Assembly (NCBI GenBank): GCA_040954595.2 | Contig: CM082590.2 | Coordinates: 4,836,001-4,900,000, forward strand | Origin: Balanoglossus misakiensis | Taxonomy: Eukaryota > Animalia > Hemichordata | Length of the DNA: 64,000 nt | Reading direction: 5' to 3' | Part shown: positions 9,718 through 43,860 of the stretch, one piece after another | Layout: every line of letters starts with the position of its first letter | Position numbering within the stretch: position 1 is the stretch's first letter | The notes under the pieces: model-generated | What the model was told of the DNA's origin: nothing | Seen by the model: only the letters and a program-made list of their open reading frames with translations | The model's database searches: none | Position numbers and translations under genes: made by a program

Positions 9718-9724
9718 AAAAATA

Positions 9725-21822: not shown

Positions 21823-24800
21823 CTATTGTTTACTTGCCAGCTCACGAAAGTGAGTTTCACAAACCCAAATGACACCTGTGCCATATGCTATTGGCTGAAG
21901 GCCCCCAAACTGTCCATCTTCATCAGCTTTACCGAGAAAGCGTTGGAAATCTCTGCGGTGTGGTGATGATTTCATCTTTTCTAACTCCTCCATGGACTTT
22001 TGTAGTGGCTCTCTGGATATGTCATTCAATTCTGGATACTTGCTTCCAAAATCATCCAAGAATTCTGACAGTAAGTTACCTGCTTTCCCAGCGATTGCAG
22101 GAACTGTTTTTGCTGCTGCAGCAGCAGTACCGGTTGGATCTGGAATGAACTTCAACAAACCACCAGCTTTCTCAATGAACTTCAGAATTCTACAGATATG
22201 TGGGCCATACTTCTTGAGAAACCCATTCACATTTCTAACTCGATATCCTGGGAAATCGATGAAGTGCAACTGTTGTGGGTTTTCACAAAGCAAGTGGACT
22301 GCATAACCATCAGAGAAGTGGGAAAACACATACTGTGTCAGTTGACCCACAACTGATAGGCTGCCTGTGTTAACCGACAGCATAACAAAGTGACTTGGGC
22401 AGCGCATGTCTTTGGACATGTCAAATCTAGTCTGGGTAGAAATTGGTCTTTCTACACCATGCCACTGTAGTAGGTCTAACCTGTTGTCAAATGTGTGACT
22501 GTGTGATTTGGGGATAGAACAGATGAGACTGTTTCCAACCTGTTTCATTTCTCCAATCTTAGGTTTACACTGAACGATACAGTGTGGGCATGATAGGGAC
22601 TCTGGTACCTTCATATCAACATTCATGTACTGAGCGGTGTTGAGAACATCCTTCATGATGCTTTGGAGTTGTTGCAGGAGACAACAAGCCTGTGGTCCCC
22701 TAACACTGACAAGGATACTGTTGCTATGGTAAAGCAACTCAAAACGCACATGGTGCACAGTATCCACACTTCTGCCAAAACCACCAGATTTGATACATTC
22801 ATCACATGGTTCCAACCTTTCATTGCAAAGAAACACAATGTTATTTCGTGTGTATGTGGGATGACTTGACTCTGCAAACATGGCCTTCTCATTGACTGCT
22901 ACTATTAGATCACAGAAAAACAGTGGAGGTAGAAAGCCAAATTCGTAAAGTTGACTAGCCTGTCTGACTTTGTCTTTAGGGTATGGGTACCAACTATCTT
23001 GTGATGGTTGACCAACAGGTAACTTACAAGGAAACAGAAAACCCTTCTTTCCTTCAACTGATGTTTGTTCATCACCAAATGCAAAACAGATACGCAATGA
23101 TGTAAAACCATCTAAAAGTGAGCCACGATATTCACTTTCGATGTCTGCCCAGGCTTTTACCATGTTCTCCATTGACAGTATGCCATTGTTATCAATGAAT
23201 TCCCCAGACCCATCTTCCCTTGCATAAGATATCAGTGTCTTCAATTTATTAGCCAGCCAATGGGGATCGAGTACTACCAGCACTTGCAGACCCTTGTCTC
23301 CAGTTGTACATCTAGATGGATCAACCACTATGTCACCCTGACTACACAGAAAACTGGTTGCATTATCTAATGTCACACCCTTTTCAATTCCAATGTTACC
23401 AGCAATCTCCTGGTATTCCTTGAAGGTCATTACTGGGTTTGGACGTTTCAGTCGTTCTGATTTTAAGTTCTCTCGCAAGAGATTCCACTTTTCGGGGATT
23501 TCTGGGTTTGTTGATTCCAAAAGAATATCACAAACCTTTGTTAGTGCCTTTTGCAACTGTGCAATGCTCTTATTCCCCTTGTATAATATCCAATTTGGGA
23601 ATTTTTCTGTGCTGCAAACCTCAACATATCCAACAATGTGTGGACAAGAAGTCAGAGCTCTTCCTTCTGAAGGAGGCATTTGACTTTCATCAACCAATTC
23701 CTCATCACCATCAATACTCACATATCCAGCTAATCCCTTAAACATACTCTTTCTTTTCAGCACATCTTGGTTCTGACACACTAAGCAAATTTTGCACATA
23801 TTTTGTCGGTAGTGCTTGCAATGTGTGTCTCTCATTTCAACAAGTGTATCATGAACCGTCTGCCAAATCAAGTCAAGCACAGCCCTGTTTAACATTGGCG
23901 CATCAGCATGGGTACCTACCAGAAGAACTGGAGAATTTGGAGCATATGCAAACACGGTCTGCAACCACAATTTCACTCTCCCCATTTGATGTGAAGATGA
24001 CACCTTGTTCGTTGTTGAACTAATGGCAAATTTGCTGAGGTCAAAGGTGACCAAAAAGACACTGTCATCTGTAATAAACAGTGAATGTGATTCCAGAAAA
24101 TCTACATCCCCAGCAAAATCAAACACAGTCAACTTAATATCTCTCTCTTTGAGATTTATTTCCGAGATGTCTATGCCATCAGTTTTCTGCACGTCTGATG
24201 ATTCACCCTTCAATGCTTGCACTAGAGTTGTTTTTCCTACACGTTCATGACCAACGAGAACTACCTTGACATTCCTGTTAGGCAACGTCTTTGTGTTCAG
24301 AAATTCCTTCAGGTAAGACAAGACAGCTTCCTTACCACCCCTTAAAATATCACGTGGTATGTTTATGGATGGATTTCCTTCTATGCTGATGTATTCACAA
24401 TCAACAAGTTTGCTCAACGATGGTGGTATTCTCTTAATTGAATTGTTACTCACATCCAATGTTGATAAACCAGGAATTGAACCGATGTCCTCCTGCATAT
24501 CAGTCAAACCATTGTTACTTAAGAACAACTGTTTAACACTCCCACAAGCGATGTGTATTTGGTGTTTCATTTTACTGTCTGCTTGTGGAGATCTTTTCAC
24601 TTGGAGGGGACAGTAACTTACATTCAGTATTTCAAATGACCCAGGATATTGGATAGACCATGGTACAGGGATCTTAGTATCAATGCAGGTGAAATACCTA
24701 GCTGAGGGCAAAAGCCAACCAGCCACTTTCTCGGGATCAAAAGACTTAACACTGATTAAAGTGAGACTTTCCGATACCTTTATGTTTCTCACCTTCTTGA

Positions 24801-25032
24801 TGTCGACATTGCATAACACCAATGAACTTATTTCTCTACCCTTCAAAAGTACATCTAACCTTGATAACGCTTTGCTGTCACCAACTACAATTGCCTTTAC
24901 TTTCTCGCCTCTGTTGTAAACGGCTGTCAACTTCTCATCCAAAGTGTCATCTGACAAGTCGAGGACTTCACGCGTTGTATCAGATTTTTCAGCTACGATT
25001 GCTCTGATCTTTCCAGCTTTGAGTAACTGTTT
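21823..25032 (-). CDS. Terminal coding exon of an ANK-LRR-ROC-COR (Roco family) gene: LRRs, ROC GTPase, COR, C-terminal domain (1069 codons + stop)
   Basis: Acceptor ttttttcag| at 25033-34 is phase 0 and in frame with the 1044-aa ORF. LRRs LFLSNNGL, LDVSNNSI, ISIEGNP. ROC motifs: G1 GHERVGKT, switch I TDGIDI, G3 FDFAGD, G4 VGTHAD. COR-like IPEKW and VVLDPHWL. No kinase domain. Confidence 0.93.
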   Translation of the reverse strand, partial: KQLLKAGKIRAIVAEKSDTTREVLDLSDDTLDEKLTAVYNRGEKVKAIVVGDSKALSRLDVLLKGREISSLVLCNVDIKKVRNIKVSESLTLISVKSFDPEKVAGWLLPSARYFTCIDTKIPVPWSIQYPGSFEILNVSYCPLQVKRSPQADSKMKHQIHIACGSVKQLFLSNNGLTDMQEDIGSIPGLSTLDVSNNSIKRIPPSLSKLVDCEYISIEGNPSINIPRDILRGGKEAVLSYLKEFLNTKTLPNRNVKVVLVGHERVGKTTLVQALKGESSDVQKTDGIDISEINLKERDIKLTVFDFAGDVDFLESHSLFITDDSVFLVTFDLSKFAISSTTNKVSSSHQMGRVKLWLQTVFAYAPNSPVLLVGTHADAPMLNRAVLDLIWQTVHDTLVEMRDTHCKHYRQNMCKICLVCQNQDVLKRKSMFKGLAGYVSIDGDEELVDESQMPPSEGRALTSCPHIVGYVEVCSTEKFPNWILYKGNKSIAQLQKALTKVCDILLESTNPEIPEKWNLLRENLKSERLKRPNPVMTFKEYQEIAGNIGIEKGVTLDNATSFLCSQGDIVVDPSRCTTGDKGLQVLVVLDPHWLANKLKTLISYAREDGSGEFIDNNGILSMENMVKAWADIESEYRGSLLDGFTSLRICFAFGDEQTSVEGKKGFLFPCKLPVGQPSQDSWYPYPKDKVRQASQLYEFGFLPPLFFCDLIVAVNEKAMFAESSHPTYTRNNIVFLCNERLEPCDECIKSGGFGRSVDTVHHVRFELLYHSNSILVSVRGPQACCLLQQLQSIMKDVLNTAQYMNVDMKVPESLSCPHCIVQCKPKIGEMKQVGNSLICSIPKSHSHTFDNRLDLLQWHGVERPISTQTRFDMSKDMRCPSHFVMLSVNTGSLSVVGQLTQYVFSHFSDGYAVHLLCENPQQLHFIDFPGYRVRNVNGFLKKYGPHICRILKFIEKAGGLLKFIPDPTGTAAAAAKTVPAIAGKAGNLLSEFLDDFGSKYPELNDISREPLQKSMEELEKMKSSPHRRDFQRFLGKADEDGQFGGLQPIAYGTGVIWVCETHFRELASKQ

Positions 25033-25349
25033 CTGAAAAAAGAACGTATCCGATAAATATTAACAGTTATTAATACATGAAGGACAGTATGCAACACATT
25101 GATGAATGTATTCTTTATCAGGTATGACACATCTTAGATGTACCATTCTTCTATACACTGTAATCTAGCTATCACTCTCTTGACTAAACAAGATGAAGTT
25201 CCTCTTTCTGGACAGCTGGACTAATCACCTTGCTTGCATGAGGTGCATATGCCAAATTCATAATGGTGATATTGATAACTACTGATTGCTATACATGTAC
25301 TGTGGCAATTTGAAACAATTGATTTATTTATTTACAAGGGATGCAGTTA

Positions 25350-26151
25350 GGCTGCATTCACAAACACCTCTGGAGGGGGGGGGGCGGGAGAATTCAATTT
25401 TTTTTACCGTTAATTTTCACATGCCCCCCTCAACAACCCGAAATATTTTCAAATTCCCCCCTTCCGAACTGCTAACATTTTCAAATCCCCCCCCCCATTT
25501 TCTTTCACACAGCAAAACACATGACCTATTTATCTTGTAAAAAAGAAAAAACAGCGCTCCCATGAAAAGAATTTGAAACTGATGTTTCCCCTCATCAGTG
25601 GGTATTAAAACTGAACATTGTTTTTATTTTTAAAGTATTTATATTCTGTGTTGGGAGACATTGTAAACCGAGAAGAGCAGGGGGTGGGGTTGGGAGGGGG
25701 AGTCCCCCTCCCACGTAAGAAAATTTTACAAAATACAGAGTTCAAAACTGCATTTTAATGAACCCAAAAGCAAATTAACTCAACTACCGGTATGTTGGGG
25801 AGGACAAATTTAACCTTGGGCGCTCAAAGTTAGCATGGGGGGGGGGGGGGGGGCAAGTCCCCTGACCTGGGACACTAGATAAACCAGTCAATGATTTAAA
25901 GGTGTTGATGAATGATGGGGGTGGGAGGGGGTGTCCCCCTGCCACATGAGAAAAATTTGTATTATGAAGGGTTCAAAACTGCATTTTTGTGGACTCAAAA
26001 TAAATATTTAGTCCTCAAAGTTTTCAAGCCCCCCCCCTTTACAGTCCCTAAATTATTTCAAATCCCCCCCTTACATACCCTCATTTTTTTTCAAACCCCC
26101 CCCTCAATTCTCCTGCCCCCCCCCCCTCCAGAGGTGTTTGTGAATGCAGCC
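25350..26151. mobile_element. PIF/Harbinger-like MITE in the last intron
   Basis: TIR of >30 bp, ggctgcattcacaaacacctctggaggggg / ccccctccagaggtgtttgtgaatgcagcc, with TTA on both flanks (25347-49, 26152-54). Confidence 0.85.
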
Positions 26152-26474
26152 TTAAATAAGACGTGCCCATCAATTATTGTCATGAAATGGTGATGAGAGA
26201 GTTGGTGTCCAGCTAAATCAATTTGCATTCCAGGGTACTGAGCACTGAGACTTGCAACTTTGCCTGCATTGTGGGGTCTAGATTTCTCCAATAAAATCAT
26301 TGCATATGAATATCTAATTTCAATCTTTCATGCAACATAACACTTTTAGTAGGTCCTGATCAACATACTAGTTCTTTGGAAAATTACTTCATACTCTCTA
26401 TGGTGCTGTAGTGAAATTGTTGAACAAGTAAAGATAACCTATGAAGAGTGCTGATATGTACAATTGGAATTCAC

Positions 26475-26549
26475 CTTGGTTGGTAATGTTACATGGGAAT
26501 ACAACAGCAATGCTGACACGGTACACAGCCTTCTCCCACTGTATTCATA
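26475..26549 (-). CDS. Possible degenerate ankyrin-derived exon (75 nt, phase 0-0): YEYSGRRLCTVSALLLYSHVTLPTK
   Basis: Acceptor tttatttcaacccatag| and donor accaag|gtgaat, with an open frame. Its end (LLL...TK) parallels the neighbouring ankyrin exon ends (LLLQANANIDLQTK). Confidence 0.4.
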
Positions 26550-29500
26550 CTATGGGTTGAAATAAACATACATAATTTATGAAATATAGCAATATCTGGA
26601 CCTGTCTGGGCCTCTTCTTTTTTCTTACTATCTGTGAAACATATTAATATTTACATCTTAGGATTAAGAAAATGTAAATTAAGATGTAGAATTTTTTTCT
26701 CAGATTAATCAACCATTTAATCAACCATTTAACCAGAATAATTGAACCGAATCGATAAAAGCAAACATTTAAGCAACTTTTAAATATGAATTAGTAAAAT
26801 AAAGCTCCAAATAGAAAAAAAACGCAGTTGTACATTAATTATCACATGACTAATCCTGCATTGAAATTAACCTGCAGTAGTCCGAGAGCAGCATTTTATC
26901 CACAGTACGTTTTTTGAGCTTTTTTTTATTCCATTCAAGTTCCCGGGCTGTGAAGAAGCTTGAACTACGACATTAGAACGTCTGTCCTGCCAAGCATCAT
27001 TTACTCAATGTGCGTTTACAAGCAATTACAATAATTTGCGGTGATGTTCTGTCTTTGACCAAGTGTTTTGATCAAGGATATAACACTACCACCATGTCTG
27101 GACTTAATAGATACATACCTTCAACTTTTCTACTGCGAAATCCAAAGGGGTTTCGCCATCCTAAAATATAAGAAGCCATACATCAGAGTTTATCGCTTGT
27201 TTTTTCTTGTTTGTCTGTCAGACCTACAGAAATATTTATCTGGACAGCTTAAAGTCTGTAAGCATGCGAGAGATTGCTTTTGATTTTATAATAGAAGAGG
27301 TATGAATAGAAGGCACAAAAACAAACAGTGCTTATGAATTATAAGCAATGTTCGTTATAAACTATAGTCTAGCGCCTGCCAAAGCTCGCAAAATATTGTC
27401 TGTGCATGAATGCACTGGAAAGTAAAATGGCCGCAAGAGCGACCAACGTAATGCCATGTTGCTTCTTGTCACAGTCTGGTCTATGTTTGTTAAAGCTTTA
27501 ATAAAAGGATCATTCCCCTCTGGCCAAAACTGTACACATGGTTTGAATGTCTAAAGCTAAGTTGTCTACAACTTCACCGTCATTGAATGAAAACAAAACA
27601 AGAATAATTTCCACAAAGTCAGCCAGCATGTTGGGGAGCCAGAATAATCTTATGAACTCTCACGGCAGATAACCATCCCTGAAGTACCCGATAATATCAA
27701 CCGAAAACTGGGTGATAAACGTTGGAATATCGCGGATGTGCGCGAAAAATTCAGGAATGACACAAAATTCTTGCCTACGTGCGAAACTTAAACAGGAACA
27801 GTCAGTTGTGTCCACAATGCAAATTATAAAGTCCCCCGGACCGCCATATTTTAAGCGAATTTCAGGCAAAATCGGGTGTGCGGTGGTCACCGATTCCACT
27901 AAATGACAATAAATCACCAAACGAAACTATGTTTCAACTCTCTTCGGAAACACATGGCCGACGACTGTTAATATACGAGAGAATACAACAAATGTAACGG
28001 ATAGCCTCACACTTCACTGTGTAAAGCGCGCCGGGGATCTACTTCAGCGACTACATATAATACTCAGACGTCCATTCTACCTTACTTCACCGCTAGTGGC
28101 GCCCTGCAACAGCCAATTTTACTTTGGCGTCAGTCACTTGTAAGTGAAGTAATGCAGTTTTCATCAAGTCTTATTTGTTTTCTATTTTTAGGATTATGAT
28201 CAACGAACAACTAGTGTGGTCGAACTGTTTTTGGCAAAGTTTCAGGGTAACAATTTAATCGCTGTGATTATTCAAAGAGTTTAGTTAAAACCTGAGTGAC
28301 GGGTATTGTACGGGCATTGCACATGTAGGGTCATGTTTAGATTGACAATGCCATAGGTGCTAATTTGTGTCCGTCTTCGGGACTATAGGCAACGAACAAC
28401 CAATAAGTCTGAAACACAATATCTCGAATATGAGAGTGAGCGAAATTATTTTAAGAAGTAAAGGTCGCCTGAGTTTAAATTAATCAAGTCTTTGATACTT
28501 CAAGGGGGGGGGGGGGGTAGTTCACCCTTTCCTGAGTCTGTCTTGATCATAGCAACCTGATACAAAATGTTGTGTGTATCTATAAGGGCATTTCATAAGC
28601 TTGCCTTTATCTATCGCTACAAGTCGTACATTAATTTTTAAAAGCATAGCAAGTCTAGAATGTTTTCTCCGTTCTTCTAAAGTTTTCCATCATGGTATCT
28701 TCAGACAAATCAACAGGAAGAAATCATGAGAGCCAGCTCAGCGAGCTTGAGTAAGAGGTGAGGGCGGACTTTATCTGAACCATAAATCATGGCAAAAATT
28801 CTAGGCCAATGAAAGGTGTCTTGGGTGAAACCCTCAATAACTGAATTGCATTGCATAGATTAAGTGGGATTCTCCCTATGTTAGGATTGGAATATGTGAC
28901 ACTTTCTCTGGAAATGTTAGTAAAAAATAAGCCCTTTTCCGTCTCAACCTTGCCATAACATCTCTAAGCTCCTTAATTTTTTCTTGTGCTTTTTTAGTTA
29001 TCTTCTTAATTGGTGAAATGCAGTTCAAGTCTGGTAAACATACATTTATTAATATTGAAGAGCAGGTTTAGCAAGAAAGCAGAACTGAAGGTTTGTGGGT
29101 TGAAGCATTTATATTTGCAGATTTTGTACGAACGCTTTTACAAGACTTAGTTGTGACGTGTACCAGCCTTTGTCAAATGTGTTGCACAATCACGACCGCC
29201 TGGTGGCACTGTGACCATAGGTTGCCTGTGCGAAATAGGTGATAGACGCCCTTCTCGTCTGAGGCCATGTTTATTAAATCGGGCATGGAGTAATGAGCGG
29301 ATGTTTTTTCCGTATCCGGAGATCTGGTCACGGTTGCGTTGTGATCATTCGCTCCACGCGTTCGAGTTTTTCCAGTATTTTGGTTTTCTCTATGTTCAGT
29401 GTCTCCATTTCCTGTTCCGGTCAGACACTGGAATTCCGCGTTTTCCTTGATTTGTCGATAGTTTTGTTAGAGATTTGATTTTTCTCTGCCGGGGGGGGGG

Positions 29501-29789
29501 GGGGGGTTCTCTCGGAGTAGGGTGTCAGAAGTGCCCGATCGAGTAGGTACTTTTGTGCCCGGAAAGGGTGCCACCGTTTTGCATTTTGAAAAGAAAACAA
29601 CTTGCCTGTATCACACGTAGAACGTAAACGTGTAGAGTGCGCACATTTGTACGCATCTGTTCCTTCCCAGGAAATCTTTGAGATGTGCTAAAATACTCTT
29701 TTCTACTATTGCCTTTTCATGAGATTATACACATGCCTTATATAAATTATAATATTAAATGTTTAAACAATCTTTAATTAAACAATAGA

Positions 29790-30800
29790 CATTTATATTT
29801 ACAATAATATAAATCTGCTGATCTTGATCTCACATTCAACAAAAACAAACAACACTTCCTGCTCAGAATGATTGATTTCTTTTTTTTTAATCATGTGTAA
29901 ACACTGTATAATTATACAAGACAGGCTGTCATTGTTAAAATATGTTGTAAAGTCTGGGTCGTTGGGAATAAGGCAGAGGGATAGGCTTTAACTATTTATT
30001 TTTATTTACCTATAGATGTTCAAATATGTGTGATATTGATAATAAACCGTGTCAGCTGATGTGTGAGTGTAGAATAGAATGAGTGTGATTACAGTAACTC
30101 ACCTTGGTCTGCAGATCGATGTTGGCATTAGCTTGCAGTAGAAGTCTCACCACGTCACCATGGCCTTTCCATTCAGCATGGTGTAACGGTGCCCAACCAT
30201 TCTGTGGCAATACAACAAAAATGTGTCACTGAGCATCCCTGACTATAAGCGTAAAATGGAACATGCAATGTTTCATTAAGCATGCACTGTTATATATATT
30301 CTGAACATTCATTTGTGAGATGGCACAACATGTTTTGCCGACACTTTTTTTTTTTGGGGGGGGGGGATAAATTAAAAGTAGGATACATCCCAGTCCCCCA
30401 CGTAATGGACATGAATGCATGATGTGGTGATAGGGCAGTGTCCCTTGAGGGTACATTAACATCACAGGTATTCTTTTACTTGAGATTTATGATACTAGCG
30501 TCTGTTGTTTTCATTTGAAGATGCCCTCTGTACAATACCTGAAACTGACTGACCTAAATATCATAAAAGCCTAGACAGCAGTTTCATTACCCCTTAAAAG
30601 AGCATTGGAATTAGCCAATCAAAGAACGCCAATTATGAATGAAAGGTAAGAAATATGTTGAACCACTATTGACATTCAACTGATTATGGTGGACTTCAGC
30701 CAGAAAACTTATTTTAGTCTCGCCAGCCAGATCTCTCTCTCTGTCATTCGACGGCATAGCCACACGAAGTGCGCCACGAGAGGTGAAGCCACAAAAATCG
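29790..30800. repeat. Copy A of an intragenic duplication containing an ankyrin exon (copy B ~36130-37200)
   Basis: Colinear intron sequence on both sides of the exon, e.g. tataaatctgctgatcttgatctcacattcaacaaaa and gtaggatacatcccagtcccccacgtaatggacatgaatgcatgatgtggtgataggg. Confidence 0.9.
30103..30201 (-). CDS. Roco gene ankyrin exon 5 (99 nt): NGWAPLHHAEWKGHGDVVRLLLQANANIDLQTK
   Basis: ccacag| acceptor and |gtgagt donor; 33 codons matching the ankyrin consensus. Confidence 0.9.
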
Positions 30801-31643
30801 AGCATCGGAGACAATGTCGCCGCTTGTGGCGCCCTTCGTGTGCCTGTGCGTGACGTCGACGGATAGCGAGGTCTGTCAGGCAAGTAGTCTCGGTTACCCA
30901 GAGCCCTCTGCTTCTTCCGATGGGCACTCCAGAAAGAGGGTCTGGGGAAACCCCATAGACAAATCTCCGGGCAAAGATGGCCGACTTGAGACAAAAAGCG
31001 ATGCAGAAGCGGTCTAGAAATATCATGCAAGGGGTGAAGGGAACAGCGTTTAACCGTCTCGATGGACTCTTGCACGCTCAAATGACGGATGCAACGCACC
31101 GAGTGTGTTGAAAACTGCATCTGCTGGCTCTGAACCTTCAGCGCAACCAAAGTCATCTAATTAATGCATCGGTACACACAAACATACGACACAACCCAAC
31201 ACAGAACCCAGCACTCGGCATGAACTGAAAGCAGCAAATGCTCCAGCGAAGCCAGAGTTATTTTTACCGAGAAGGAAACATGAGGGGAAAGAAGCAAGTG
31301 CGGTTCATCAGTTATTGTGCCGTAAAATTAACCCAGCGCCAGGCTTTGAGTCTATTGACACCATTTTGGTGTGACCATGAAGTAACGTCAAAGTCATTGT
31401 GAAGTTTTACAAAGTTTGCATAATGAGGCAATCCTTAGAATAACACTCTCCGACCATTGATAACCGATTCCACAGCTTCAGTAGTATTCAATAATGCATC
31501 ATCTAAAGGTTCCTGTTCTCAAGACGTTGAAATTTGCTTTAGAAACAATTTTGGATTTAGTTTCCGGTTCAAGAAAGTAAATGTTATCAATTTTAACGCT
31601 ATAAACCGTCATTTAATTTAGATTAATGGAATAATATTAATTA

Positions 31644-32929: not shown

Positions 32930-33028
32930 CTTGTTTTGTATGTTGACAGAGCATTTGGCTTTCAGTAATAAGAGTGCTGCTCCTTCATGACCCGTCTCTG
33001 TTGCCAGGTGTATAGCTGTGTCACCATT
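32930..33028 (-). CDS. Roco gene ankyrin exon 4 (99 nt): NGDTAIHLATETGHEGAALLLLKAKCSVNIQNK
   Basis: tttacag| acceptor and |gtaagt donor; 33 codons; ankyrin consensus GxTxxHLA..GH. Confidence 0.92.
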
Positions 33029-36000
33029 CTGTAAAATACAAAGACATATCAGACACCAACACTGCAGTACTAGTTAATGAATGTGAATTTTTTGTGTATC
33101 GTAATCAGCAATACAGTTACTTTTCGGGTTTATTTGAAGATGTACGTAATTATGCAAATTAAATAAAAAAAACACTGTTGGTTTTGTTATTTATTATTAC
33201 GATACCTTTCATATCACTAGTCATAAACTTTTCAATGGGACACCATGACAGTTGCGATGATCAATGGCTTATGTGCAAAACAACATTTACATCAGAGAAG
33301 CAATAATGTTTCGGATTGGTAGTTTAGAATATTGCTACATAAATTCGCCTTATGTGTAAATGCCGGATATTTTACCACTATGGGGAAAAGTGTCCTGCGG
33401 CTTAATCTGTCGATAATAGTATTGGACCGTAAGATAAATCTTAGGATTTTAGCCTTCCTGAACGAAAGTCGAATATCTCATGTCCCTTCTACAAAAATAT
33501 TTCAGTGCCTATGATGGCACATTTCAATCGATCGGTCGTTGATGGGGTGTTTTTACAGGACCTTGAAGGATTTAGCCTGGAGCAGAGCATCTCGATTCCA
33601 CCGTTCTCTTTATTGTACTCAGGAGTGATGCTGGGCGACCATACAACGTTGGGCGATCTCCTTTAAAAGTTATTTACAACATCGACAAACAACAGCAAGG
33701 AATGCTTCATTGTGTTTTTAAAATATTATCATCATCATCACCATCAACACCATCATTATTTCATCAACAACAACAAACAAACAATCACTGTCCACTGTAA
33801 GTTTACAGCGATGCATGTACAGATATGACATGACTGCGATCGCCATGCAACCACAGGTAACTATTACGCGTGCGCGAGTGGCACTGTGTGCACACTCAAA
33901 TCTCTCTAGTTTGAGATAATCCGAACTGATATTTGGTGTCAATTCAAATACGCGAAATCGAACATTATAAGAGGTTGTTAAACGAAGTGAAATGTGAGAT
34001 AGACTTCAAGAGTACCACTGCTTTAACCCACCGACTGTACTGCTCAGATCCGTCTGCACCGAAAATGATATTCTTATACACTTAAACAAACAGATGGAAC
34101 ACACGGTAGATATTTCTACAAGGAAATGCCTTGTGTTAAATCATTTCTATACATGTGAAAACTGTTTCATCACGTTTAATGAACGGAGGGATCTTCACAA
34201 ATCTACTGTATGCAAACAACGCCTCTGGTTGGAATGTGACAGTCGGGACAATTGTCATGGTTTTCTTGTGTTAAACTTTAAGTTCTCGTGGGGCTGAGAC
34301 TGACATAAGACGGCATTACGATAGTGATAGTAAGAGCACGAGCATCATTTTGTCATTAGGACTGCCGCTTATAGTGAGGGCGGCGTAACCAACATTTTCA
34401 TATCAAGTGGCTCAGATGGGTGTTTATGTGTAATAGACAAATTCCCATAGAGAGCCAATAAATATCTGTTAACGTTAAAGGGTGGCCATGGCAACTATTT
34501 TAACACTAGTTTAATTATACAGTAGTAAAAAGCGTTAGCGTTACGTCCACTAGAAGTCGACCACTTCCCCATTGTTAGCTTGCGTTACACGGCCTCCACC
34601 GGTCGCCTACCGCCGGGAACTCACAGACCTGTACGCAGGGCTAGGAACACACATTCATGTACGCACAGAAACATACGCCACAACCCAACACAGAACTCAG
34701 CACTCGGCATGAACTGAAATAGGCAAATGCTCCAGCAAAGCCAGAGTTATGACCGTATGTACATGTAGACTCATACACGGCCGCCAAGCAGAAAATTCGT
34801 TTTCGGGATTTTGACAAATAACATCGGAGGAGGCAAGTGACAGGCAAACATCAGGAAACAGATTATGTCTCATCACAGTCTTTCGGGGACGGTGTGATTT
34901 CAATATTACCTACACGTGGTGGGAAAGTATTTAATATAAAATTTAATATATTTAATATAACGCATGGTGACAGCAATACGTGGCAAGCCAAGTTCTGACA
35001 GGAACATTGCGATATTATTGGTGAACTTGTAGGGCTTCCTTGCAGCTAGCAATGCGCGGAATTAGCATATCCTCCGGCGGAACAGCTGCATTTCCACAAC
35101 TACTGAACCCAACTCTGAAAAGGTTGGATTTTCAGAGATTTGCACTTACTTTCATTCCATTCTTCGTACAACGGAAGATGTGGAACATGTTTTGCTTTAC
35201 AAAAATCTATGCTTTTCACTAGCTCCCCCTTCATTTGCATAATACGCCCTTTTCGGTAAAAACAAACTGTACCAGGAAACGCCTACACTAGATGATTTCA
35301 TGTTTTTGTACAAACACAGAGAAATAAACTGTCAGGTTTAATCCCCCTGAAATTTTTCCTTGCCTTTATGCAATATACACAATGATTTTTCAAGACATCG
35401 ACCGACAGCGTTATGGCAAGTATCCATGGCTGTTTAGCCAACATCGCGAAACTTATTATAGGCTTATATTGAGCATTTGTGAACAGATACACAGTTAGGC
35501 ATAGGTCACACTATACATGTACAGGGCTCACTCGATATAATCGTGTCAACAATGGCGCAATTCAAGCGCCTGTACCACCTGTTGCAATTGTCTCTACAAC
35601 AAGCTGACTGACTAAATATACTTGGAATCGGACAACAGTGTGATAAGGTTTATCAGCGGAATCTAACCGACGTGCCAAGCTCAATGCAATGCAGGGCCGG
35701 GTTAACGCAGATTTGAGTCTTAGCCAGGCTGGCTTCTCTAGCTTGAGTGGTCGTCGCGTCGAACGCTCTGCATGGATGATACACGTCCTCCTATACCAGC
35801 GCAAATCCCACTGCAGTTGCCACGACTTAGTAGGATGTTCAGTTGCTATCATGCCCAGTCTACGCTACAGTGGGCGGCTTCCTTCATTCAAAAAAATAAT
35901 TCTAAAAATAGAATTTCAGGGATTTGTGGGCAATTTTTTTTCCAACAAACAATGCACAAAAGCGCAGCGCGACGAGAGCTTCTGTTTGAAGTTTTATAAC

Positions 36001-36129
36001 CAGTTTGTATAATTTAATGCGGGGTGGCAGGCTAAATATTTATTGATCATTACTGGAATAGAGGATTTCTTTCATGCTGTTATCAGTAAGAGGGGCTCTC
36101 GTTTATTGGTCCTATATTATGATACACAC

Positions 36130-37200
36130 TAATATTTACATATAAATCTGCTGATCTTGATCTCACATTCAACAAAACAAACAAATTAATTTCTCTTTTT
36201 AAATCATGACAAACTGTTCTTTTAAAGAAAAAATACATTGAAATATTATTTTTTTAAGAATCCATAATTAACAAGACAGGCTGTAATTGGTAAAATTAGG
36301 TTGTAACGTCTAATTTGTTATGAAGAAGGTAGAGGGATAGACGTTAATTATTTATTTTTATTTACCTGCGTTCAAAAATGTGTGATATTTATAACAAAAC
36401 GTGTCAGCTGATGTGTGAGTGTAGAATAGAATTGGTGTGATTACAGTAACTTACGTTGGTCTGCATATCGATGCTGACATTGGATTGCAGTAGAAGTCCA
36501 ACCACGTCACCATGGCCATTCCATGCTGCTAAGTGTAACGGCGCCCAACCATCCTGTGGGAATACAACAAAATTGTGTCACTGAAAATCCCTGACTATAA
36601 GCGTATAATGGAACACGCAATGTTTCATTATAAGCATGCATTGTAACATACATTCTGAAACATTCAATTGTGAGATGGCACATGTTTTGCCAAAACTTTT
36701 TTTGGGGGTGGGGGGATAAATTAATAGTAGGATACATCCCAGTCCCCCACGTAATGGACATGAATGCATGATGTGGTGATAGGGCTCTGTCCTTTGAGGG
36801 TACATTAACATCACATGTATTCGTTTTCTTGAGATTTATGATACACGCGTGTGTTGTTTTCATATGAAGATGCCCTCTGTACAATCACTCAAACTGACAA
36901 TGATTTAAATATTATAAAAGCCTAGACAGCAGTTTCATTACCCCTTAAAAGAGCTTTTGCATCAGCCAATCAAAGAACACCAATTATGAATCACAGGTAA
37001 GAAATATGCGGACCCACTATTGACATTCAAATGATTATGGTGGACTTCAGCCAGACAACTTTTTGTAGTCTCGCCAGCCAGACCTCTCTCTCTGTCATTC
37101 GACGGCATAGCTACATGAAGTGCGCCACGAGCAGCGAGGCCGGGAGAATTGAGCGGCGAAGACGGCCTCGCCGCTTGAGGCGCACTTCATGTGCCTGTGC
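36130..37200. repeat. Copy B of the intragenic ankyrin-exon duplication
   Basis: Colinear with 29790-30800. Confidence 0.9.
36455..36553 (-). CDS. Roco gene ankyrin exon 3 (99 nt): DGWAPLHLAAWNGHGDVVGLLLQSNVSIDMQTN
   Basis: ccacag| acceptor and |gtaagt donor; 33 codons; ankyrin consensus PLHLAA..GH. Confidence 0.92.
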
Positions 37201-37893
37201 GCGGCGTCGACTGAAAGAATCACAATTTGTAGATTTTCGGTTGAAAAGTCATCCCAAGTTTGTTTTTTTTCCGTTGAAAAGTGACCCTTCTGGGTGACAC
37301 ATACCCGTACACCTTCCTATGGGAGAACCCCCCCCCCCCCGGCCTGTTGTGCAGGATACATGGCACCCCGACATTTTACAATTATTTATTTTCGGAGCTT
37401 TAGTTCACTATTTCGCTTCGCCGTTGTTACTGACAGCTATTACACTACAGTTTGTTTAAATATAAAATAAATGTGTCATCGTGCATGTAGCAATAGTTCA
37501 TGGTTAGGTCCCTAACTTTCCGGTCAAAAAGTTAACTATTGATAGATTATTTATCGAAAAATCTAATTACGAATTTCGATATGAACACCCTGATCCCAAC
37601 CTCTCGAATTACTCGACGTTTTAATAAAATATTGCTTTATAGTGGTATGGTCTTCAAAAGTGAATTGGATGGTCTCAAAAGAGATAAGAATTAAACTTGG
37701 CCGCAGGTATAGCCACGGTCCAAAAACTTTCCCTCAAACTCTTTCATACTCTTCATAATCCTATTATGTGTGTCAGTTTATTGCAGTAACACTGGTTTCA
37801 TGATTGACATCCCAAAGGTCATCAACACTACAGTACAGTGTCACCTTTTTGGCCGTTCGGGCTATTGGTGAGTGAGCATGTAAAGCCACTTAC

Positions 37894-37992
37894 CGCATTC
37901 TTAGCATTGACGTCAGCTCCATGGTCGATCAACACTTGTGCCGCTTCCAGTTTATTTTCCCAGGCTGCAGCATGCAATGCTGTGGATTCATC
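37894..37992 (-). CDS. Roco gene ankyrin exon 2 (99 nt): DESTALHAAAWENKLEAAQVLIDHGADVNAKNA
   Basis: aatttcag| acceptor and |gtaagt donor; 33 codons; TALHAAA...LIDHGADVN is a canonical ankyrin repeat. Confidence 0.94.
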
Positions 37993-38698
37993 CTGAAATT
38001 GACAAATTCATTTGAATTAAAATAAACACAAGCTATGTTCCAATGTTGGACTTGTAAGGTGACATGGCTATAATTTCATTGGAATCGATTTGTAACTATA
38101 AGTGTTGACTGATATTATGAGTTAAATGTGTGTAGCATCTATAGTTGTTTCAGACCAAAACTCTATTGTTTCAGAGAACATTTATAACCTGTCCTGTAGA
38201 TATTTCTAACAAGTGTAATACTATAAAATTCTAATATAATGTAGCGCACTATACATGTTTATGCACAATCATTGGTGCAACAGGTCTTAATATCATTTCA
38301 TAAATTACATTGATATGTTCAAATTTTCAAACACACCAAGTACTCTAACAGATGAACATGGCTGACGTGATACACCAGACACATTTAATCCCTCGTTTTT
38401 CTCTGTTGATGTAAGTTGAAGTCTGGCCCGCTATGAACCCAACATTGGCATGGGACATCTTGAAATTTTCAATCACACTAAGTACTCTAACATAGACACA
38501 AGACGGACGTGATACACCCGACACACACAATCCCCTGTTTCTCTGTTGATGTAAGTTAATATTTAGGTATAGCCTGCTATGAACCCAACGTTGGTACATA
38601 TGGTACATCAATGTTATAATTATTTAATGTTGCTAGGAAACATCAGAAAAAGAATTGTCAAAACCAGCGTGGACATTTCTCTCAAATGTGTCTTTTTT

Positions 38699-40055
38699 AG
38701 GTCCCATTGGTATATACCATGGGACCTTATGGGATCGGTTGCGTCTGTATGTATGTATGGATCGATGTATGGATGTATGTCTGTATGTCCGTCCACATCA
38801 AAAACTTGAAAACCGCTGCGTGTATCACCTTGATATTTGGTGTGTAGATGCAGGCAGGGCTGTAGATGGGAGTTTGTTCAAAAGTTGTCATTGCCAAAAC
38901 AATGCAAATTAGTTGGGAAAATGTGAAATTGGTCAAAACTCAAAAACTCGACAACCACAGGTCATATTGTTGTGAAAATTGGTATGCATGTACCTTATGT
39001 CAACCTCATACAGTCCTGTATGTTTTGAGCTAACATTATCGATTTCCTATTTTTTATGCATTTTTTTGTATTTTTCCATGTTATTGGTAAAAAGTCTTCA
39101 TTTCTGAAAGTGATGGGCTTACTTCTTAGCATGAAGCTTCCTAATGGTTGTCTGAGTAACCATAGTTTTGTTCAAACTGTTGCAAAATTTGCATATTTAT
39201 AATTTTGAGCAATATTTGCCATTTTTGGTCAATTTTTTTTTCTTTAAAACCGCATGCCAGATTGCTTTGCAATTTGGTAGGCATGTTCGTAGGGGTAATC
39301 TAAGTAAAATGTTGTAAAAAAAGTGATATTTGCATAAATGTGTTATCGGGGAAACTTTTGCAATTTTTGTCAAAAATTGTTTTCTCTGAAACCGCTTGTC
39401 ATATTGCATTGAACTTTGGCAGGCAGGTTCCTTGTAGTGATTGATGTAAGATATTGTACAATTTTGATGATATTTGCATATTTGTGTTTTTGCCACTTTT
39501 GAAATTTTGGATGTAATTTCATAACACATACATGCATATGTGCAACTTTTATTTAATTCTGATGTCAGAAGTATTTAATATTTAGCGAGTTTTTTGTAAG
39601 TTTCTTTGTTTTGGTTAGCAAATCTTCTCCTAAACCAATTGTCCAGTTGTTTTTAAAGTTACTATTTACAAGGAGTTGTTACCCCGAACTAAGACATGCT
39701 TACATAACTTTAATAGGCCAGCTGTTACAGAGACCACCAGCTATTAAATTTTAATTACCAGTGGCAGGTCAGTGTGTGTCTGTCTGTGTGTCTGTTCCAG
39801 GGCTGACTGAAAGAAGTTGCTTCTCATATGTGTTTGTACAGACAATTTTGGTCAATTTTTTTCTAGTATCACTTGTAAGACTGCCATGACACATGACAGT
39901 TTATTGGGCATGTTCCTTGTTAATTTTTTTACATTCCATATTTCTTTATGGTAAGATCATATCTGCTTGCAATGTCACCTGTAATTTCTATTCTGGTGTG
40001 TCACTATTTCTGCATAATCCTCAAATGGGACCACAGTGTCCTTGACGCTATTTTT
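38699..40055 (+). mobile_element. Single complete HINE/DINE-1-like (Helentron-associated) element in an intron
   Basis: 5' subTIR/hairpin ggtcccattggtatataccatgggacc, then a (gtat/gtcc)n microsatellite. 3' subTIR aatgggacc followed by stem-loop agtgtc-ctt-gacgct. T runs on both flanks. Confidence 0.8.
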
Positions 40056-40240
40056 TAAAAGCGTTTTTGTATCCATTGAATGGAACTGAAATCACATATG
40101 TCTGGTTCACTGAATTTAACAAAAAACATAAAAGGAAAATTGTGGTCGCGCAAATAAGTGTGAAAGTGGAGTTCACTAAACAAATTGAATTAGCCCTTCT
40201 AATAAACGTAAGAACTTTGTTTGTTGAATTTATGTGACAA

Positions 40241-40414
40241 ATCTGATTAAAATCAGATGTAGAGTTAGGCGTTGTCTTTACCTGTGGTGATCATTTTGGC
40301 TGTTCTGTTCTCTGTCTTGGCCGTTCTCAGGTGGACGGCCCCTATCCGAACAGAAAAGCCAAGAATCAGCAATATTAAAGACACCGCCTAATTCTACATC
40401 CGATTTAATCAGAT
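40241..40414. repeat. Imperfect foldback element
   Basis: Arms atctgattaaaatcagatgtagagttaggcgttgtcttta / taaagacaccgcctaattctacatccgatttaatcagat. Confidence 0.65.
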
Positions 40415-41317
40415 AGTTTTGTCCCTAAGCTTACAATAACACAATCACTAGCTTCCTTCACAAACAAAGATGTCGTCCAAATGGCAACTCTCCAGCCTGC
40501 AATGACACAGATTCTACATATTCTTCGGGTGTCCGCAAATGAAACATTTCAGCTTGGCCTTGTCACGACTCTGATATTCTCCCTGTATTCCCCATAGACA
40601 AGCACTAAGTCCTTACTCTGGCATTGTTCTATGTCCATCGAGGAACAGTAACACGTTCATCTCCAATCATGTGTGTTCATTCACTCAAGTAATTTATACA
40701 GCAAAGATATCCATCGAAGAGACAGAGGAAATAAATATTACAATCAATCAACAGCTGACCAACCTCATAGATTCAAATCACGCCTGAAGAATACACTTGT
40801 AATACAAACACCACAGACTAAAGAAATCTGCACTTTTTGTTTATGAGGGCAATCAACGGCAATCTTTTCCATGACCATATTTACCTGAATTCCGATCGAC
40901 TTACGACCCGGTATTTTAATATGTACGTTGTGTCGCTTTTTGGGGTTTTAATTTTTTGAACACACTCATTTATTATAACATTTTCATTCATCTAGAATTG
41001 TCAACAACTGCGCCACAGACTGTTACTGGTCACAATATATGGATACTTGGACATTTCATTCAACACTATGTTCTTATTCATTTTGGTTTCAAATTTACTT
41101 TCTAACATCAAATTGCTATGAGAGAAACAAAGGAGGAAACAAGCTTTATTTCCTGACAAGTTTTCTATTTCAAATGCATTAAGTTGGTATATCAAACACA
41201 GGAAAGGTTTGTGTTCATCAATAAAGTCAAGGTCAAATCGTTTGCCGCTTCAGATTCGTTACCTGTGTGACTTGGTTGTACGTGTGAAATGCTCAGTGAG
41301 GTAGTGTAAATACTTAC

Positions 41318-41416
41318 CTTGCCAAGGTATACACCCTTTGCATTGACATCATACCCATCAGTTATCAACGATTGAATCTTTGCAACATCACCCTTCCCTG
41401 CAGCATCGAAGAGAAC
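41318..41416 (-). CDS. Roco gene ankyrin exon 1 (99 nt): VLFDAAGKGDVAKIQSLITDGYDVNAKGVYLGK
   Basis: ttacag| acceptor and |gtaagt donor; 33 codons; N-cap-type ankyrin LFDAA..GD....L...G.DVN. Confidence 0.92.
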
Positions 41417-42149
41417 CTGTAACATTCAGTGAAACATACAATTGTTATTTTTTTAGTAATCCTTTAAAAATAAAATTCTTCAGAATTTTAACTGATCTTC
41501 GATAATGAACAAACAAAATCACAAAAACCGAAAGAGCGATAGCTAAACTGTTACATCACATTGTTTAAACTTTGCGCATCGATGATATGGCAATGTATTC
41601 TAATTACACATAAACGTACACGGCTTACACCAAAATATAGGTACATGTACTGTAAAATGCCCGGGTGAGCCCATGGACTCATGATAAGGCAACGGTCTCA
41701 AGAGAACGGTGAAGAAATGAAATGAGAGTATCACTGTGAATGTTTGTCCAAACTGTGTGAGCAAGTTATTGTGTAGCTGTAGTAGTGTGTGGGTCGTGCG
41801 ACAGCTTTGTATACCTGGTCGCTGATGTGCTTCCCAAGAAGCATTTTTGACTGTGTGATAGGATTTGCATGATTTCCATAAAAGAAATGTGAAGAAGGTA
41901 ATGGTCAATTCACTGGCTAGCCACTCTATTGTTATAGTCTACAGATCTGGGACGTCGTCATGTTGGTCAGAACATGGAATCAACAACCGACGGTCAGCAA
42001 AGAACGTCACAGCACGGCTGTCACTACATGGCCAAACAGATAACACTTGTTTCCGTTGTGATCAGCCACAAAGTTATGGTTGACGTAGACAAGCTGCTTT
42101 CTATCGGTTAGAATGTCTCATTTTTATAGTAGTTAACCGTATGCGCTTA

Positions 42150-42345
42150 GGGACTGGTCAGTTTCTTCGGCCTGGAGTGGATTCTATTTTGTGGATATCC
42201 AAAAGTGACTGACCGCTCCCCTCCTTCATTGACCATACAAAAGTGGGTGAAACCCCGCCCCCACCCCAATCACCTAATTCCAAAACAGGGTGACCTCTCC
42301 CATGAATACACCGCCCCACCCAGGGCAAAGAAACTGACCAGTCCC
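42150..42345. mobile_element. PIF/Harbinger-like MITE (~196 bp)
   Basis: TIR gggactggtcagtttctt / aagaaactgaccagtccc with TTA on both sides. Confidence 0.85.
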
Positions 42346-43368
42346 TTATTTCGAGATTTTTATGTCATTATTCTTTGGAGTTGTGGATAATTCATGCACG
42401 CGCACAATATCCCTTCACGGGAGTTTTAATCGCGAATAATACATGGTGAAAACATCGCTGAAAGGAAACCATTCCATCGGTGAAATTCTGATCACAAAAT
42501 ACTGGAATTGCAACAAAAGGAAAACAATGAACGACATTCCAGGTTAACGACAACCGGCCCATAATGCGCTACTGAGCACAAGATGTCTGACTTGTAAATT
42601 TGTACAAATGAAGAACTTGCTGGTGTATACCCTCCCACCGTTTTGTACATGAAGGCAGAAGACAATAAACAACACTGACATGAACTAGTACCTCAATAAT
42701 TTTGTTTGTAGACAACTGTTTATTAGAAATAAAAGAACTGATGCATGGTGTACCTTAATCTTACGTTGGATTGGGATTAAAGCGTTCATTAGCAACTTCT
42801 TCACTATGGTATATTAGTGTCACGAGTTTTGGAACAAACATTCTGTGATGAAAATATTGTTTATTGTCAATAGATATCACAACTTCATGTTTACACACGC
42901 ACCGATTTAATTTAATTTTTTGGGGGGTTACAACAAATATGTGTTCTTGGAGAGAGTCAGTGTAAAAACGTCGAGGGGATAAATATTCATTTCTTTTTGT
43001 TCTTCCAAACTTAAGCGAGCGGTTTGGGTTAAATGAAAGTAGTTGCAATTGACATGCCTCACTTTATGCATTATTTTCGTGATTTTACTATCAAAGTTCG
43101 GTTGGTTTATTAAAAAAAAACTGTTGTGTCGTCTGTCGGCAAAGGATACGGAGAAGATTGAGACAGCTCTTGGGGGAATAATAATTATCCACGACCCCTT
43201 ATGATCAACACCATGCGTGCATCACCACTCATTTCAGGTCAAAGGTTATCATCATTCGACATGGCGTCAATCTGACTGTCCTAGACCCCTTAAAGCAACT
43301 GTCGTCACTGCCAGACTTTGTTGCCCTTGGTGTTAAATGTCAGTTGTTACAGTTAAAAGTTCACTTAC

Positions 43369-43398
43369 CTGCGGTTCCTTACGTTTTCCCGACGGCAT
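43369..43398 (-). CDS. Probable first coding exon of the Roco gene: MPSGKRKEPQ
   Basis: ATG at 43398 in the context aaacATG, with a perfect donor cag|gtaagt in phase 0, matching the next exon. An acceptor (ttcttacag|) at 43428-29 suggests an upstream exon also exists. Confidence 0.7.
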
Positions 43399-43860
43399 GT
43401 TTACGTCATTGACATTGTGTTGGAATACTGTAAGAATCTGGATCAGTAGCAGCGCTCTCTAGAGTTGAACAAGTCACCTTCTTATGTGTTCAAAATGGCG
43501 TTGACTACCTGGTCAGGTGATGTTGACAAAATTTTCAAGACATAGTCTGATAAATGAGAAAGTACGTTAAAACAACAAAAAATACCGGCACTTGGTCTAA
43601 GTTCATGACATCATAGAACTGTGACATATACAATGTACGTCAATACTATGGTGACGTCACAGCATAATTCATTCAATGTGTTTGTTTCTGAGTTAATCAC
43701 AAGATTTGTCGGCACACTCAAAGGACATGTTAATGACAGTATGAGCAATATATCACGTGAATGAAATGACATATCTCCACTTCGCAATACTCAGTCCAGG
43801 ACTATGACATCACTCTAGGCAATGAAACGCGATCATGATGACTATGATTCTAACTGAACC

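What the first reader, a model, noticed from the sequence alone, without database searches (positions are those of the whole stretch)
21823..43398. Kinase-less ANK-LRR-ROC-COR Roco gene with one ankyrin repeat per 99-nt phase-0 exon
The ORF track shows only the big exon. Manual splicing recovers five exons of exactly 99 nt, all GT-AG and phase 0, each one ankyrin repeat, spread over ~11 kb of repeat-rich introns and joining in frame to the LRR-ROC-COR exon (seen). Roco proteins such as LRRK, DAPK1 and MFHAS1 are established. This one pairs ankyrins with LRR-ROC-COR but has no kinase or death domain. Symmetric one-repeat exons can be skipped, duplicated or swapped without frameshift. This resembles the exon-shuffled LRR Roco receptors proposed as immune sensors in brown algae, but uses ankyrins. 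A variable-sensor immune receptor role is inference; 99-nt ankyrin exons by themselves are common in animals.
Basis: partly seen in the sequence, partly recalled or inferred. Interest (0 to 1): 0.8.

Follow-up and report, generated by a model that had tools for sequence, protein, structure and literature searches.

The report
Acorn-worm ankyrin Roco switch, kinase-free
This animal DNA, likely from an acorn worm, holds an intact predicted nine-exon gene that joins ankyrin repeats to an LRRK2-type GTP-switch module with no kinase; it belongs to an old, little-described invertebrate family ending in an unnamed domain shared with bacteria, and it likely works as an intracellular sensor, while a reshuffled immune-receptor library like that of brown algae is not shown.

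Summary
The observation mostly holds. Five 99-nt, phase-0, GT-AG exons lie over 11.3 kb upstream of an intact LRR-ROC-COR exon, with no kinase or death domain. Corrections: only four are canonical in-register ankyrin repeats (the first is an offset cap), and two more exons (42 and 75 nt) form a sixth, capping repeat before the 25032 acceptor. The model has 9 exons and 1283 aa; no transcript data were available. The architecture is old. Kinase-less ANK-LRR-ROC-COR relatives occur in cnidarians, a nemertean, amphioxus and three other acorn worms, and a distant animal locus has the same exon layout. Ankyrin number and N-termini vary between species (Rho-like GTPase, DED). One duplication in this gene made exons 4 and 6. 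Brown-algal hallmarks are absent or untested: no spare repeat exons, LRRs in one exon, 1-3 paralogues per species found, selection inconclusive. The most novel part is a ~190-aa C-terminal domain with no Pfam or fold match, shared with bacterial Rocos, in the slot where others carry TIR or EAD1. The scan earlier noted different ankyrin-cassette ROC-COR-death genes in this genome (unchecked).

The parts
43369..43398 (-). Exon 1 (30 nt, ATG, 10 aa); least certain exon
   Evidence: GTAAGT donor, in frame with exon 2; the upstream frame stays open, so it could be an internal exon
41318..41416 (-). Exon 2, 99 nt, phase 0: N-cap ankyrin-like repeat, register offset by 4 aa
   Evidence: no Pfam hit alone; HMM E 0.1; best match is the first repeat of amphioxus P0084
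37894..37992 (-). Exon 3, 99 nt, phase 0: ankyrin repeat
   Evidence: Pfam Ank E 3.7e-9; 61% identical over 33 aa to the repeat of P. flava P0001
36455..36553 (-). Exon 4, 99 nt, phase 0: ankyrin repeat, duplicate of exon 6
   Evidence: Pfam Ank E 1.6e-8; 83 of 99 nt shared with exon 6
32930..33028 (-). Exon 5, 99 nt, phase 0: ankyrin repeat, present in only one of the two duplicated blocks
   Evidence: Pfam Ank E 4.4e-7; no second copy found
30103..30201 (-). Exon 6, 99 nt, phase 0: ankyrin repeat, duplicate of exon 4
   Evidence: Pfam Ank E 8.4e-9
27119..27160 (-). Exon 7, 42 nt, phase 0: first half of the C-cap ankyrin repeat
   Evidence: aligns to P0001 residues 36-49
26475..26549 (-).
   Evidence: best-scoring candidate against the linker of three relatives; alignment
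21823..25032 (-). Exon 9, 3210 nt with stop: LRR-like solenoid, ROC (about 24267-23902), COR-A (about 23496-23065), COR-B-like region, C-terminal domain
   Evidence: Pfam; AlphaFold pLDDT 86, pTM 0.87; best folds LRRK1, LRRK2 and C. tepidum Roco; intact G1-G4 motifs
21838..22410 (-). Unnamed ~190-aa C-terminal domain; conserved Cys916, His923, Cys1058, His1061 (exon-9 numbering) around a long helical hairpin, a predicted zinc site
   Evidence: no Pfam hit; conservation; shared with bacterial Rocos; model
36122..37217 (-). Duplicated block, copy 1 (exon 4 plus flanks); further collinear pieces at 32545-32176
   Evidence: 83% over 1112 nt to copy 2
29785..30866 (-). Duplicated block, copy 2 (exon 6 plus flanks); further collinear pieces at 28049-27499

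Best explanation
This is an intact, predicted nine-exon gene, likely from an acorn worm, of an old invertebrate family of kinase-less Roco GTPases (ankyrins, LRR, ROC-COR, and an unnamed C-terminal domain also found in bacterial Rocos), and it likely works as an intracellular sensor-switch in which the ankyrin and LRR surface would bind a partner, a GTP-driven ROC-COR cycle would change its oligomeric state, and the C-terminal domain would pass on the signal. Shown: exon anatomy, open frame, domain order, intact GTP-binding motifs, family membership, one internal exon duplication, and the homology of the C-terminal domain. Inferred: splicing, GTP cycling (from other Rocos), the output role of the C-terminal domain, and any immune function (about even odds). 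The one-repeat phase-0 exons let repeat number drift over evolutionary time. They are likely an inherited layout rather than a working shuffling library.
For: Gene model open for 1283 aa with every intron GT-AG and phase 0. Closest proteins are from Ptychodera, Glandiceps and Saccoglossus at 43-54% identity. They form one clade with the window gene (SH-aLRT 100, quick tree) and carry ankyrins before the same core. Named kinase-less ANK-LRR-ROC-COR relatives occur in Hydractinia, Actinia, Tubulanus and Branchiostoma. Locus L002 has a cap exon, a 99-nt phase-0 ankyrin exon, a 93-nt cap exon and a phase-0 acceptor into one big exon, and P0086 shows the same cap-to-core junction as continuous protein. 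G1 GHERVGKT, G2 Thr, G3 DFAG and G4 THAD are conserved across the family. The model matches LRRK1, LRRK2 and C. tepidum Roco. An HMM of the C-terminal domain hits 36 of 80 prokaryotic ROC ORFs and 0 reversed ORFs. Among 76 C-terminal pieces of those ORFs, 8 carry TIR and 2 carry EAD1, all in loci without the domain. PMC8195603 section 15 calls this slot the effector position of predicted counter-invader AP-GTPase-COR proteins.
Against: No transcript, expression or biochemical data. The 80 prokaryotic loci were the best hits to a query that itself bears the domain, so 36 of 80 overstates how common it is. Two proteins carry TIR and the domain together (P0136, P0222), so it may be a structural cap or adaptor rather than an effector. 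Some relatives lack it or have half of it (P0061, P0084, P0003). Neighbours of bacterial copies show no clear defence island: 7 of 104 had PADLOC hits, mostly generic kinase, protease or desaturase models, with no control set. Plant TRN1 and human MFHAS1, other kinase-less Rocos, are linked to development and cell fate as much as to immunity (PMC4104024 passages).
Confidence: 0.7

Rival explanations
1. The gene is a variable immune receptor whose one-repeat ankyrin exons are actively skipped, duplicated and swapped, as the LRR exons of brown-algal ROCOs are.
For: Exons 3-6 are symmetric and in register. One duplication made exons 4 and 6, and exon 5 sits in only one of two collinear blocks. 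Between exons 4 and 6, non-synonymous divergence (0.147) equals flanking intron divergence (0.148), so no purifying selection is visible; 10 of 33 residues differ. Ankyrin number runs from 1-2 to about 8 in acorn-worm models and 15 or more in Tubulanus. Unchecked scan notes describe larger hypervariable ankyrin-cassette ROC-COR-death genes in the same genome.
Against: No spare, broken or antisense ankyrin exon among 3474 ORFs of the window, unlike 19 Ectocarpus loci (PMC3341825 passages). Only 1 of 15 exon pairs shares flanks. The LRRs sit in a single exon. Only 1-3 paralogues per acorn-worm species were found, against 9-47 in brown algae. dN/dS is 0.66, not above 1, and the tests have no power (Fisher P 0.52 and 1.0). 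The layout is shared with a distant animal.
Confidence: 0.17
2. The protein is a non-immune trafficking or developmental scaffold, like LRRK or plant TRN1, and the exon 4/6 duplication is a nearly neutral accident.
For: Low copy number and wide retention across invertebrates. Rho-like GTPase domains in front of the ankyrins in Glandiceps, Actinia and L015 fit membrane or cytoskeletal signalling. pN equal to intron divergence also fits relaxed selection.
Against: Fast sequence change (about 53% identity to the nearest acorn-worm relatives over the whole core), swapped N-termini including DED domains, and the effector-slot position of the C-terminal domain fit conflict-type genes better.
Confidence: 0.3
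3. The ankyrin exons belong to a separate or dead gene and exon 9 is expressed alone.
For: No cDNA. Many database relatives appear as LRR-ROC-COR only, and one P. flava model (P0003) begins inside the cap repeat.
Against: Exon 9 has no Met before residue 138, so alone it would lose conserved N-terminal sequence. All nine exons are open with consensus splice sites. Relatives join ankyrins to the core. Several ankyrin-less entries begin with acceptor-like sequence at the junction found in L002, as expected for ORF calls on the big exon alone.
Confidence: 0.05

Closest known systems
Roco group 1 (LRR-ROC-COR: MFHAS1, plant TORNADO1, prokaryotic Rocos such as C. tepidum), as classed in PMC6337361
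   Same: LRR before ROC-COR, no kinase; fold match to C. tepidum Roco; C-terminal domain shared with many bacterial members
LRRK1 and LRRK2 (Roco group 2)
   Same: ANK-LRR-ROC-COR order; best structural hits
   Different: No kinase or WD40; the unnamed domain follows COR; falls outside the kinase-Roco group in the tree
Brown-algal LRR-ROCO candidate receptors (PMC3341825, PMC11378527)
   Same: Kinase-less Roco with one repeat per symmetric exon; that paper also mentions an unnamed conserved domain after COR, possibly the same one (its alignment file could not be read)
   Different: The modular exons encode ankyrins (99 nt, phase 0), not LRRs (72 nt, phase 2); no spare exons, no large expansion and no shown positive selection or alternative splicing
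Prokaryotic AP-GTPase-COR counter-invader proteins (PMC8195603)
   Same: Repeat sensor, GTPase, COR, then a C-terminal module in the effector slot
   Different: Animal, spliced, ankyrin-fronted; the domain here has no assigned activity
DAPK1 and bivalve ANK-ROC-COR-death proteins (e.g. P0038)
   Same: Ankyrins plus ROC-COR
   Different: This gene has LRRs, no kinase and no death domain; P0038 is only a marginal hit (E 2e-4)
Database orthologues and paralogues: XP_070549552.1, XP_070550673.1 (P. flava), XP_077978787.1 (G. talaboti), XP_006813508.1, XP_077870021.1 (S. kowalevskii)
   Same: Same core at 43-54% identity, same cap-repeat junction
   Different: Different ankyrin counts and N-termini; named 'uncharacterized' or 'probable kinase roco5/roco11' although Pfam finds no kinase domain in them

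Membership tests
Roco (ROC-COR) GTPases | ROC domain directly followed by COR | tested here: met
   Pfam Roc E 1.3e-15, COR-A E 8.5e-15; fold
Roco (ROC-COR) GTPases | Intact GTP-binding motifs | tested here: met
   G1-G4 conserved in alignment A1; the motif labels are recalled
Roco (ROC-COR) GTPases | GTP binding, hydrolysis and COR-based dimer cycle | not testable with these tools
   needs biochemistry
Roco group 1 (LRR-ROC-COR) | LRR before ROC-COR and no kinase | tested here: met
Roco group 1 (LRR-ROC-COR) | Only an LRR domain precedes ROC-COR | tested here: not met
   predicted ankyrin exons in front
MFHAS1 or TORNADO1 orthologues | Groups with MFHAS1 or TRN1 in a ROC-COR tree | not tested
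LRRK (group 2) | Kinase and WD40 after COR | tested here: not met
   no Pfam kinase in exon 9 or in 69 flanking ORFs; no tblastn hit with two Roco kinase regions; stop codon where relatives end
DAPK1 (group 3) | N-terminal kinase, C-terminal death domain, no LRR | tested here: not met
   LRR present; no kinase or death hit by Pfam or tblastn
Brown-algal exon-shuffled ROCO | One sensor repeat per symmetric exon | tested here: met
   true for ankyrin exons 3-6
Brown-algal exon-shuffled ROCO | Each LRR on its own 72-nt exon | tested here: not met
   all LRRs are in exon 9
Brown-algal exon-shuffled ROCO | Spare, broken or antisense repeat exons in introns | tested here: not met
   none among 3474 ORFs of 12 aa or more
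Brown-algal exon-shuffled ROCO | Large paralogue expansion | tested here: inconclusive
   1-3 per related species in the databases; the searches are clustered and insensitive, and no own genome is held
Brown-algal exon-shuffled ROCO | Positive selection on repeat exons | tested here: inconclusive
   one pair only: dN/dS 0.66, pN equal to intron divergence, P 0.52 and 1.0
Brown-algal exon-shuffled ROCO | Alternative splicing of repeat exons | not testable with these tools
   needs RNA reads

The most novel reading that the evidence does not exclude
An overlooked, invertebrate-wide branch of Roco proteins keeps a bacterial-type, zinc-clasped C-terminal effector behind its GTP switch and acts as an NLR-like intracellular immune sensor, with swappable front ends (ankyrin arrays on one-repeat exons, Rho-like GTPase, DED). 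In acorn worms the ankyrin exons turn over by duplication and skipping to change what is sensed.
Probability: 0.22. Interest if true: 0.75.

Novelty: new variant of a known kind. Interest (0 to 1): 0.45.

Why it matters
The reviews seen here list three Roco groups and four vertebrate genes. This family adds a kinase-less ANK-LRR-ROC-COR type spread from cnidarians to amphioxus, mislabelled as kinases in databases. It is a natural LRRK-like scaffold without a kinase, so it could show what the GTP switch does on its own. Its unnamed C-terminal domain links animal Rocos to bacterial Rocos predicted to fight invaders and gives one defined domain to test. The 99-nt ankyrin exons alone are not surprising (recalled as common in animals; not confirmed in the papers searched).

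Tried and rejected
No whole genome is held, so paralogues and genome-wide repeat content could not be counted. No RNA holder was listed for exon 9; this says nothing about expression. The C-terminal domain gave no Foldseek match at E 0.001 or better and a best VIA Z of 5.4 over 59 helical residues, which is not meaningful and does not show a new fold. The Atlas score for that domain was 0.77, a lead only. A word-index search with the domain found 1 protein and a profile search of longer proteins found 8; both are insensitive. The first GTDB scan with the animal motif found no relative. A Rho-like or DED front end was sought in the window by tblastn and not found; small exons could be missed. 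An alternative small exon at 26631 scored 111 against 145 and was not adopted. Exons 4 and 6 as two alleles mis-assembled in tandem was considered and judged unlikely at 15% divergence (inference). Look-ups of the exon-4 cassette and of P0001 among earlier findings were blank. PADLOC on 104 of 125 listed neighbours, from 20 of the 36 domain-bearing bacterial loci, gave 7 mostly generic hits. The tree is the quick version because the careful search did not finish. No complex prediction was run. Literature: ten searches found no description of this family in hemichordates or other invertebrates. The library holds only open-licence papers, and a 2008 Roco review likely to list cnidarian members was not held, so prior description cannot be excluded. 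No paper confirming that 99-nt ankyrin exons are common was found.
Full report
Observation. The window is intron-rich animal DNA (GC 39%). On the minus strand a 1078-codon open frame (25059-21826) has Pfam LRR, Roc (E 1.3e-15) and COR-A (E 8.5e-15) and no kinase or death domain. Enumerating every open AG-99 nt-GT stretch gave 67 candidates. Four score as Pfam Ank at E 4e-7 or better; exon 2 has no hit. An ankyrin HMM trained on 16 repeats of relatives ranks the five first among 3474 six-frame ORFs, exon 2 only marginally (E 0.1, next ORF 0.21), and finds no further ankyrin exon on either strand.

Gene model. Relatives have a degenerate capping repeat between the last full ankyrin and the core. 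A 42-nt exon (27160-27119) matches its first half. Scoring phase-0 candidates between it and 25032 against three relatives picked a 75-nt exon (26549-26475) at 145, against 111 for the next and 78 for none. The nine-exon model is open for 1283 aa with all introns GT-AG and phase 0 and aligns through the junction with five acorn-worm proteins. Exon 2 is offset by four residues and is a cap. Exon 1 rests only on a strong donor and frame; the upstream frame stays open and a 4-codon ORF ends 2 nt before its ATG. No kinase, death, Rho-like or DED exon was found elsewhere in the window by tblastn with 13 query regions or by Pfam on 69 flanking ORFs, and the stop falls where most relatives end. All splicing is predicted.

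Exon turnover. Exons 4 and 6 lie in blocks that are 83% identical over 1112 nt. Two more pieces follow each block in the same order at 79-84%, suggesting a tandem duplication of several kb, with exon 5 in the first copy only. Only this pair, of 15 tested, shares flanks. The two exons differ at 16 of 99 nt and 10 of 33 aa. pN is 0.147, pS 0.212 and flank divergence 0.148 (147 of 993); dN/dS is 0.66 and neither Fisher test is significant. This fits relaxed or diversifying selection equally and proves neither.

Family. The best relatives are P. flava (two models, 53-54%), G. talaboti (51%) and S. kowalevskii (43%; three entries in all). In a quick ROC-COR tree of 53 rows they form one clade with the window gene (SH-aLRT 100), the window gene next to P. 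flava (90), so the source is likely an acorn worm. Named kinase-less relatives with ankyrins are Hydractinia XP_057315696.1, Actinia XP_031549381.1, Tubulanus XP_074662515.1 and Branchiostoma XP_078577616.1. Front ends vary: 1-2 to about 8 ankyrins in acorn-worm models, 15 or more in Tubulanus, a Rho-like GTPase before the ankyrins in Glandiceps, Actinia and L015, and DED, FN3 and coiled coil in one Saccoglossus model. Some of this may be gene-model error, but the Rho-ANK form is one continuous ORF in L015. Locus L002, about 27% identical in the COR and C-terminal region, has a cap exon, a 99-nt phase-0 ankyrin exon (with a GC donor), a 93-nt cap exon and a phase-0 acceptor into one big exon. 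P0086 shows the same junction as continuous protein. The layout is therefore likely old.

Structure and C-terminal domain. AlphaFold with a 50-sequence alignment gave pLDDT 86 and pTM 0.87 for exon 9. Best matches were LRRK1, LRRK2 and C. tepidum Roco. G1-G4 motifs are intact. After COR comes a ~190-aa domain with no Pfam hit. Its model (pLDDT 81) has N- and C-terminal strands around long helices. Cys916, His923, Cys1058 and His1061 are kept in 36 or 37 of 37 aligned sequences, a predicted zinc site. An HMM from these 37 animal-type sequences hit long LRR-ROC-COR proteins of bacterial look and 36 of 80 ROC ORFs from GTDB genomes (cyanobacteria, actinobacteria, Chloroflexota, Planctomycetes, myxobacteria), with 0 hits on reversed ORFs. 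The 80 were chosen as best hits to a domain-bearing query, so the share is biased. Of 76 C-terminal pieces scanned (4 too short were dropped), 8 had TIR and 2 EAD1, all in loci lacking the domain. Two other proteins carry TIR followed by the domain or part of it (P0136, P0222). Bacterial neighbours gave no clear defence signal (7 of 104).

Mechanism. Most likely the protein is a cytoplasmic sensor-switch (best 19-residue hydropathy 1.67, inside COR, so no clear membrane anchor in exon 9). The ankyrin and LRR surface would bind a partner. ROC-COR would cycle between dimer and monomer with nucleotide state, as reported for C. tepidum Roco (PMC6337361 passages). The C-terminal domain would act as output or cap. 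I put the sensor-switch reading at 0.7, an immune role at about even odds, and an actively shuffled receptor library at under 0.2.

Comparison with the literature. PMC6337361 (passages) defines three Roco groups; this gene has the ANK-LRR front of group 2 and the kinase-less core of group 1. PMC3341825 (passages and sections 12-13) defines brown-algal shuffling by 72-nt LRR exons, spare exons on the non-coding strand of 19 loci and positive selection, and mentions an unnamed domain after COR; its supplementary alignment could not be read and may bear on whether the domain is the same. PMC11378527 (parts 1 and 3 of 6 and passages) reports 9-47 genes per alga, LRR-exon splicing variants, and N-terminal ANK in oomycete and Gonium Rocos. 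PMC8195603 (passages and section 15) describes prokaryotic AP-GTPase-COR proteins with variable C-terminal effectors. PMC4104024, PMC9334734, PMC5094078, PMC7159879 and PMC1266365 were seen as passages only; the Aplysia and anemone papers describe TIR-bearing Rocos, not this family. Ten searches found no account of this family (listed under Tried and rejected), within an open-licence library.

Earlier scan notes (unchecked) describe two ankyrin-cassette genes with 10 and 14 near-identical exons in this genome, tied to ROC-COR-death proteins, and similar mussel genes. They are a different Roco type. They show that the stronger shuffling case may lie elsewhere in this genome; this gene has only one duplicated pair.

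Verdict. A real, intact predicted gene and a new variant of a known kind. The exon observation is largely right, the brown-algal analogy is only partly earned, and the old family with its bacterial-type C-terminal domain is the more interesting result. Interest 0.45.

Noticed in passing
window 6913-10993, minus strand: Apparently intact LINE retrotransposon: 422-codon ORF1-like frame and 976-codon endonuclease plus reverse transcriptase frame.
   Followed up: partly
window 43401-43415, minus strand: A 4-codon upstream ORF ends 2 nt before the predicted start codon of the Roco gene.
   Followed up: no
window 43861-44899: Nested palindromic, MITE-like elements just upstream of exon 1.
   Followed up: no
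window 47623-56379: Tandem duplication of about 4.4 kb at 90-94% identity, no coding match found.
   Followed up: no
window 14894-18504: Degenerate 239-bp tandem array with a 1.7-kb higher-order duplication.
   Followed up: no
window 63544-63990, minus strand: 149-codon Thr/Ser/Val-rich, cysteine-bearing open frame that looks like an exon of a neighbouring extracellular protein gene; no Pfam hit.
   Followed up: partly
window 62144-62905, plus strand: 254-codon frame that resembles the tail of a LINE ORF2 (recalled likeness; no Pfam hit), next to a long inverted repeat at 59955-61892.
   Followed up: no
L015:1341-5567 (also L018-L021, P0002, P0218): Relatives with two GTPase domains: a Rho/Ras-like domain, then ankyrins, LRR, ROC-COR and the C-terminal domain; one continuous ORF in L015.
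   Followed up: partly
L002:538-636: The 99-nt ankyrin exon of this distant relative is followed by a GC donor.
   Followed up: yes
L003-L014, L017, L023: Intron-rich animal relatives in which the C-terminal domain sits on its own last exon, so the single big exon is not universal in the family.
   Followed up: no
L026-L105: Bacterial LRR-ROC-COR genes carry either the unnamed C-terminal domain, TIR, EAD1 or tails with no Pfam match after COR; the unmatched tails may hold further undescribed effectors.
   Followed up: partly
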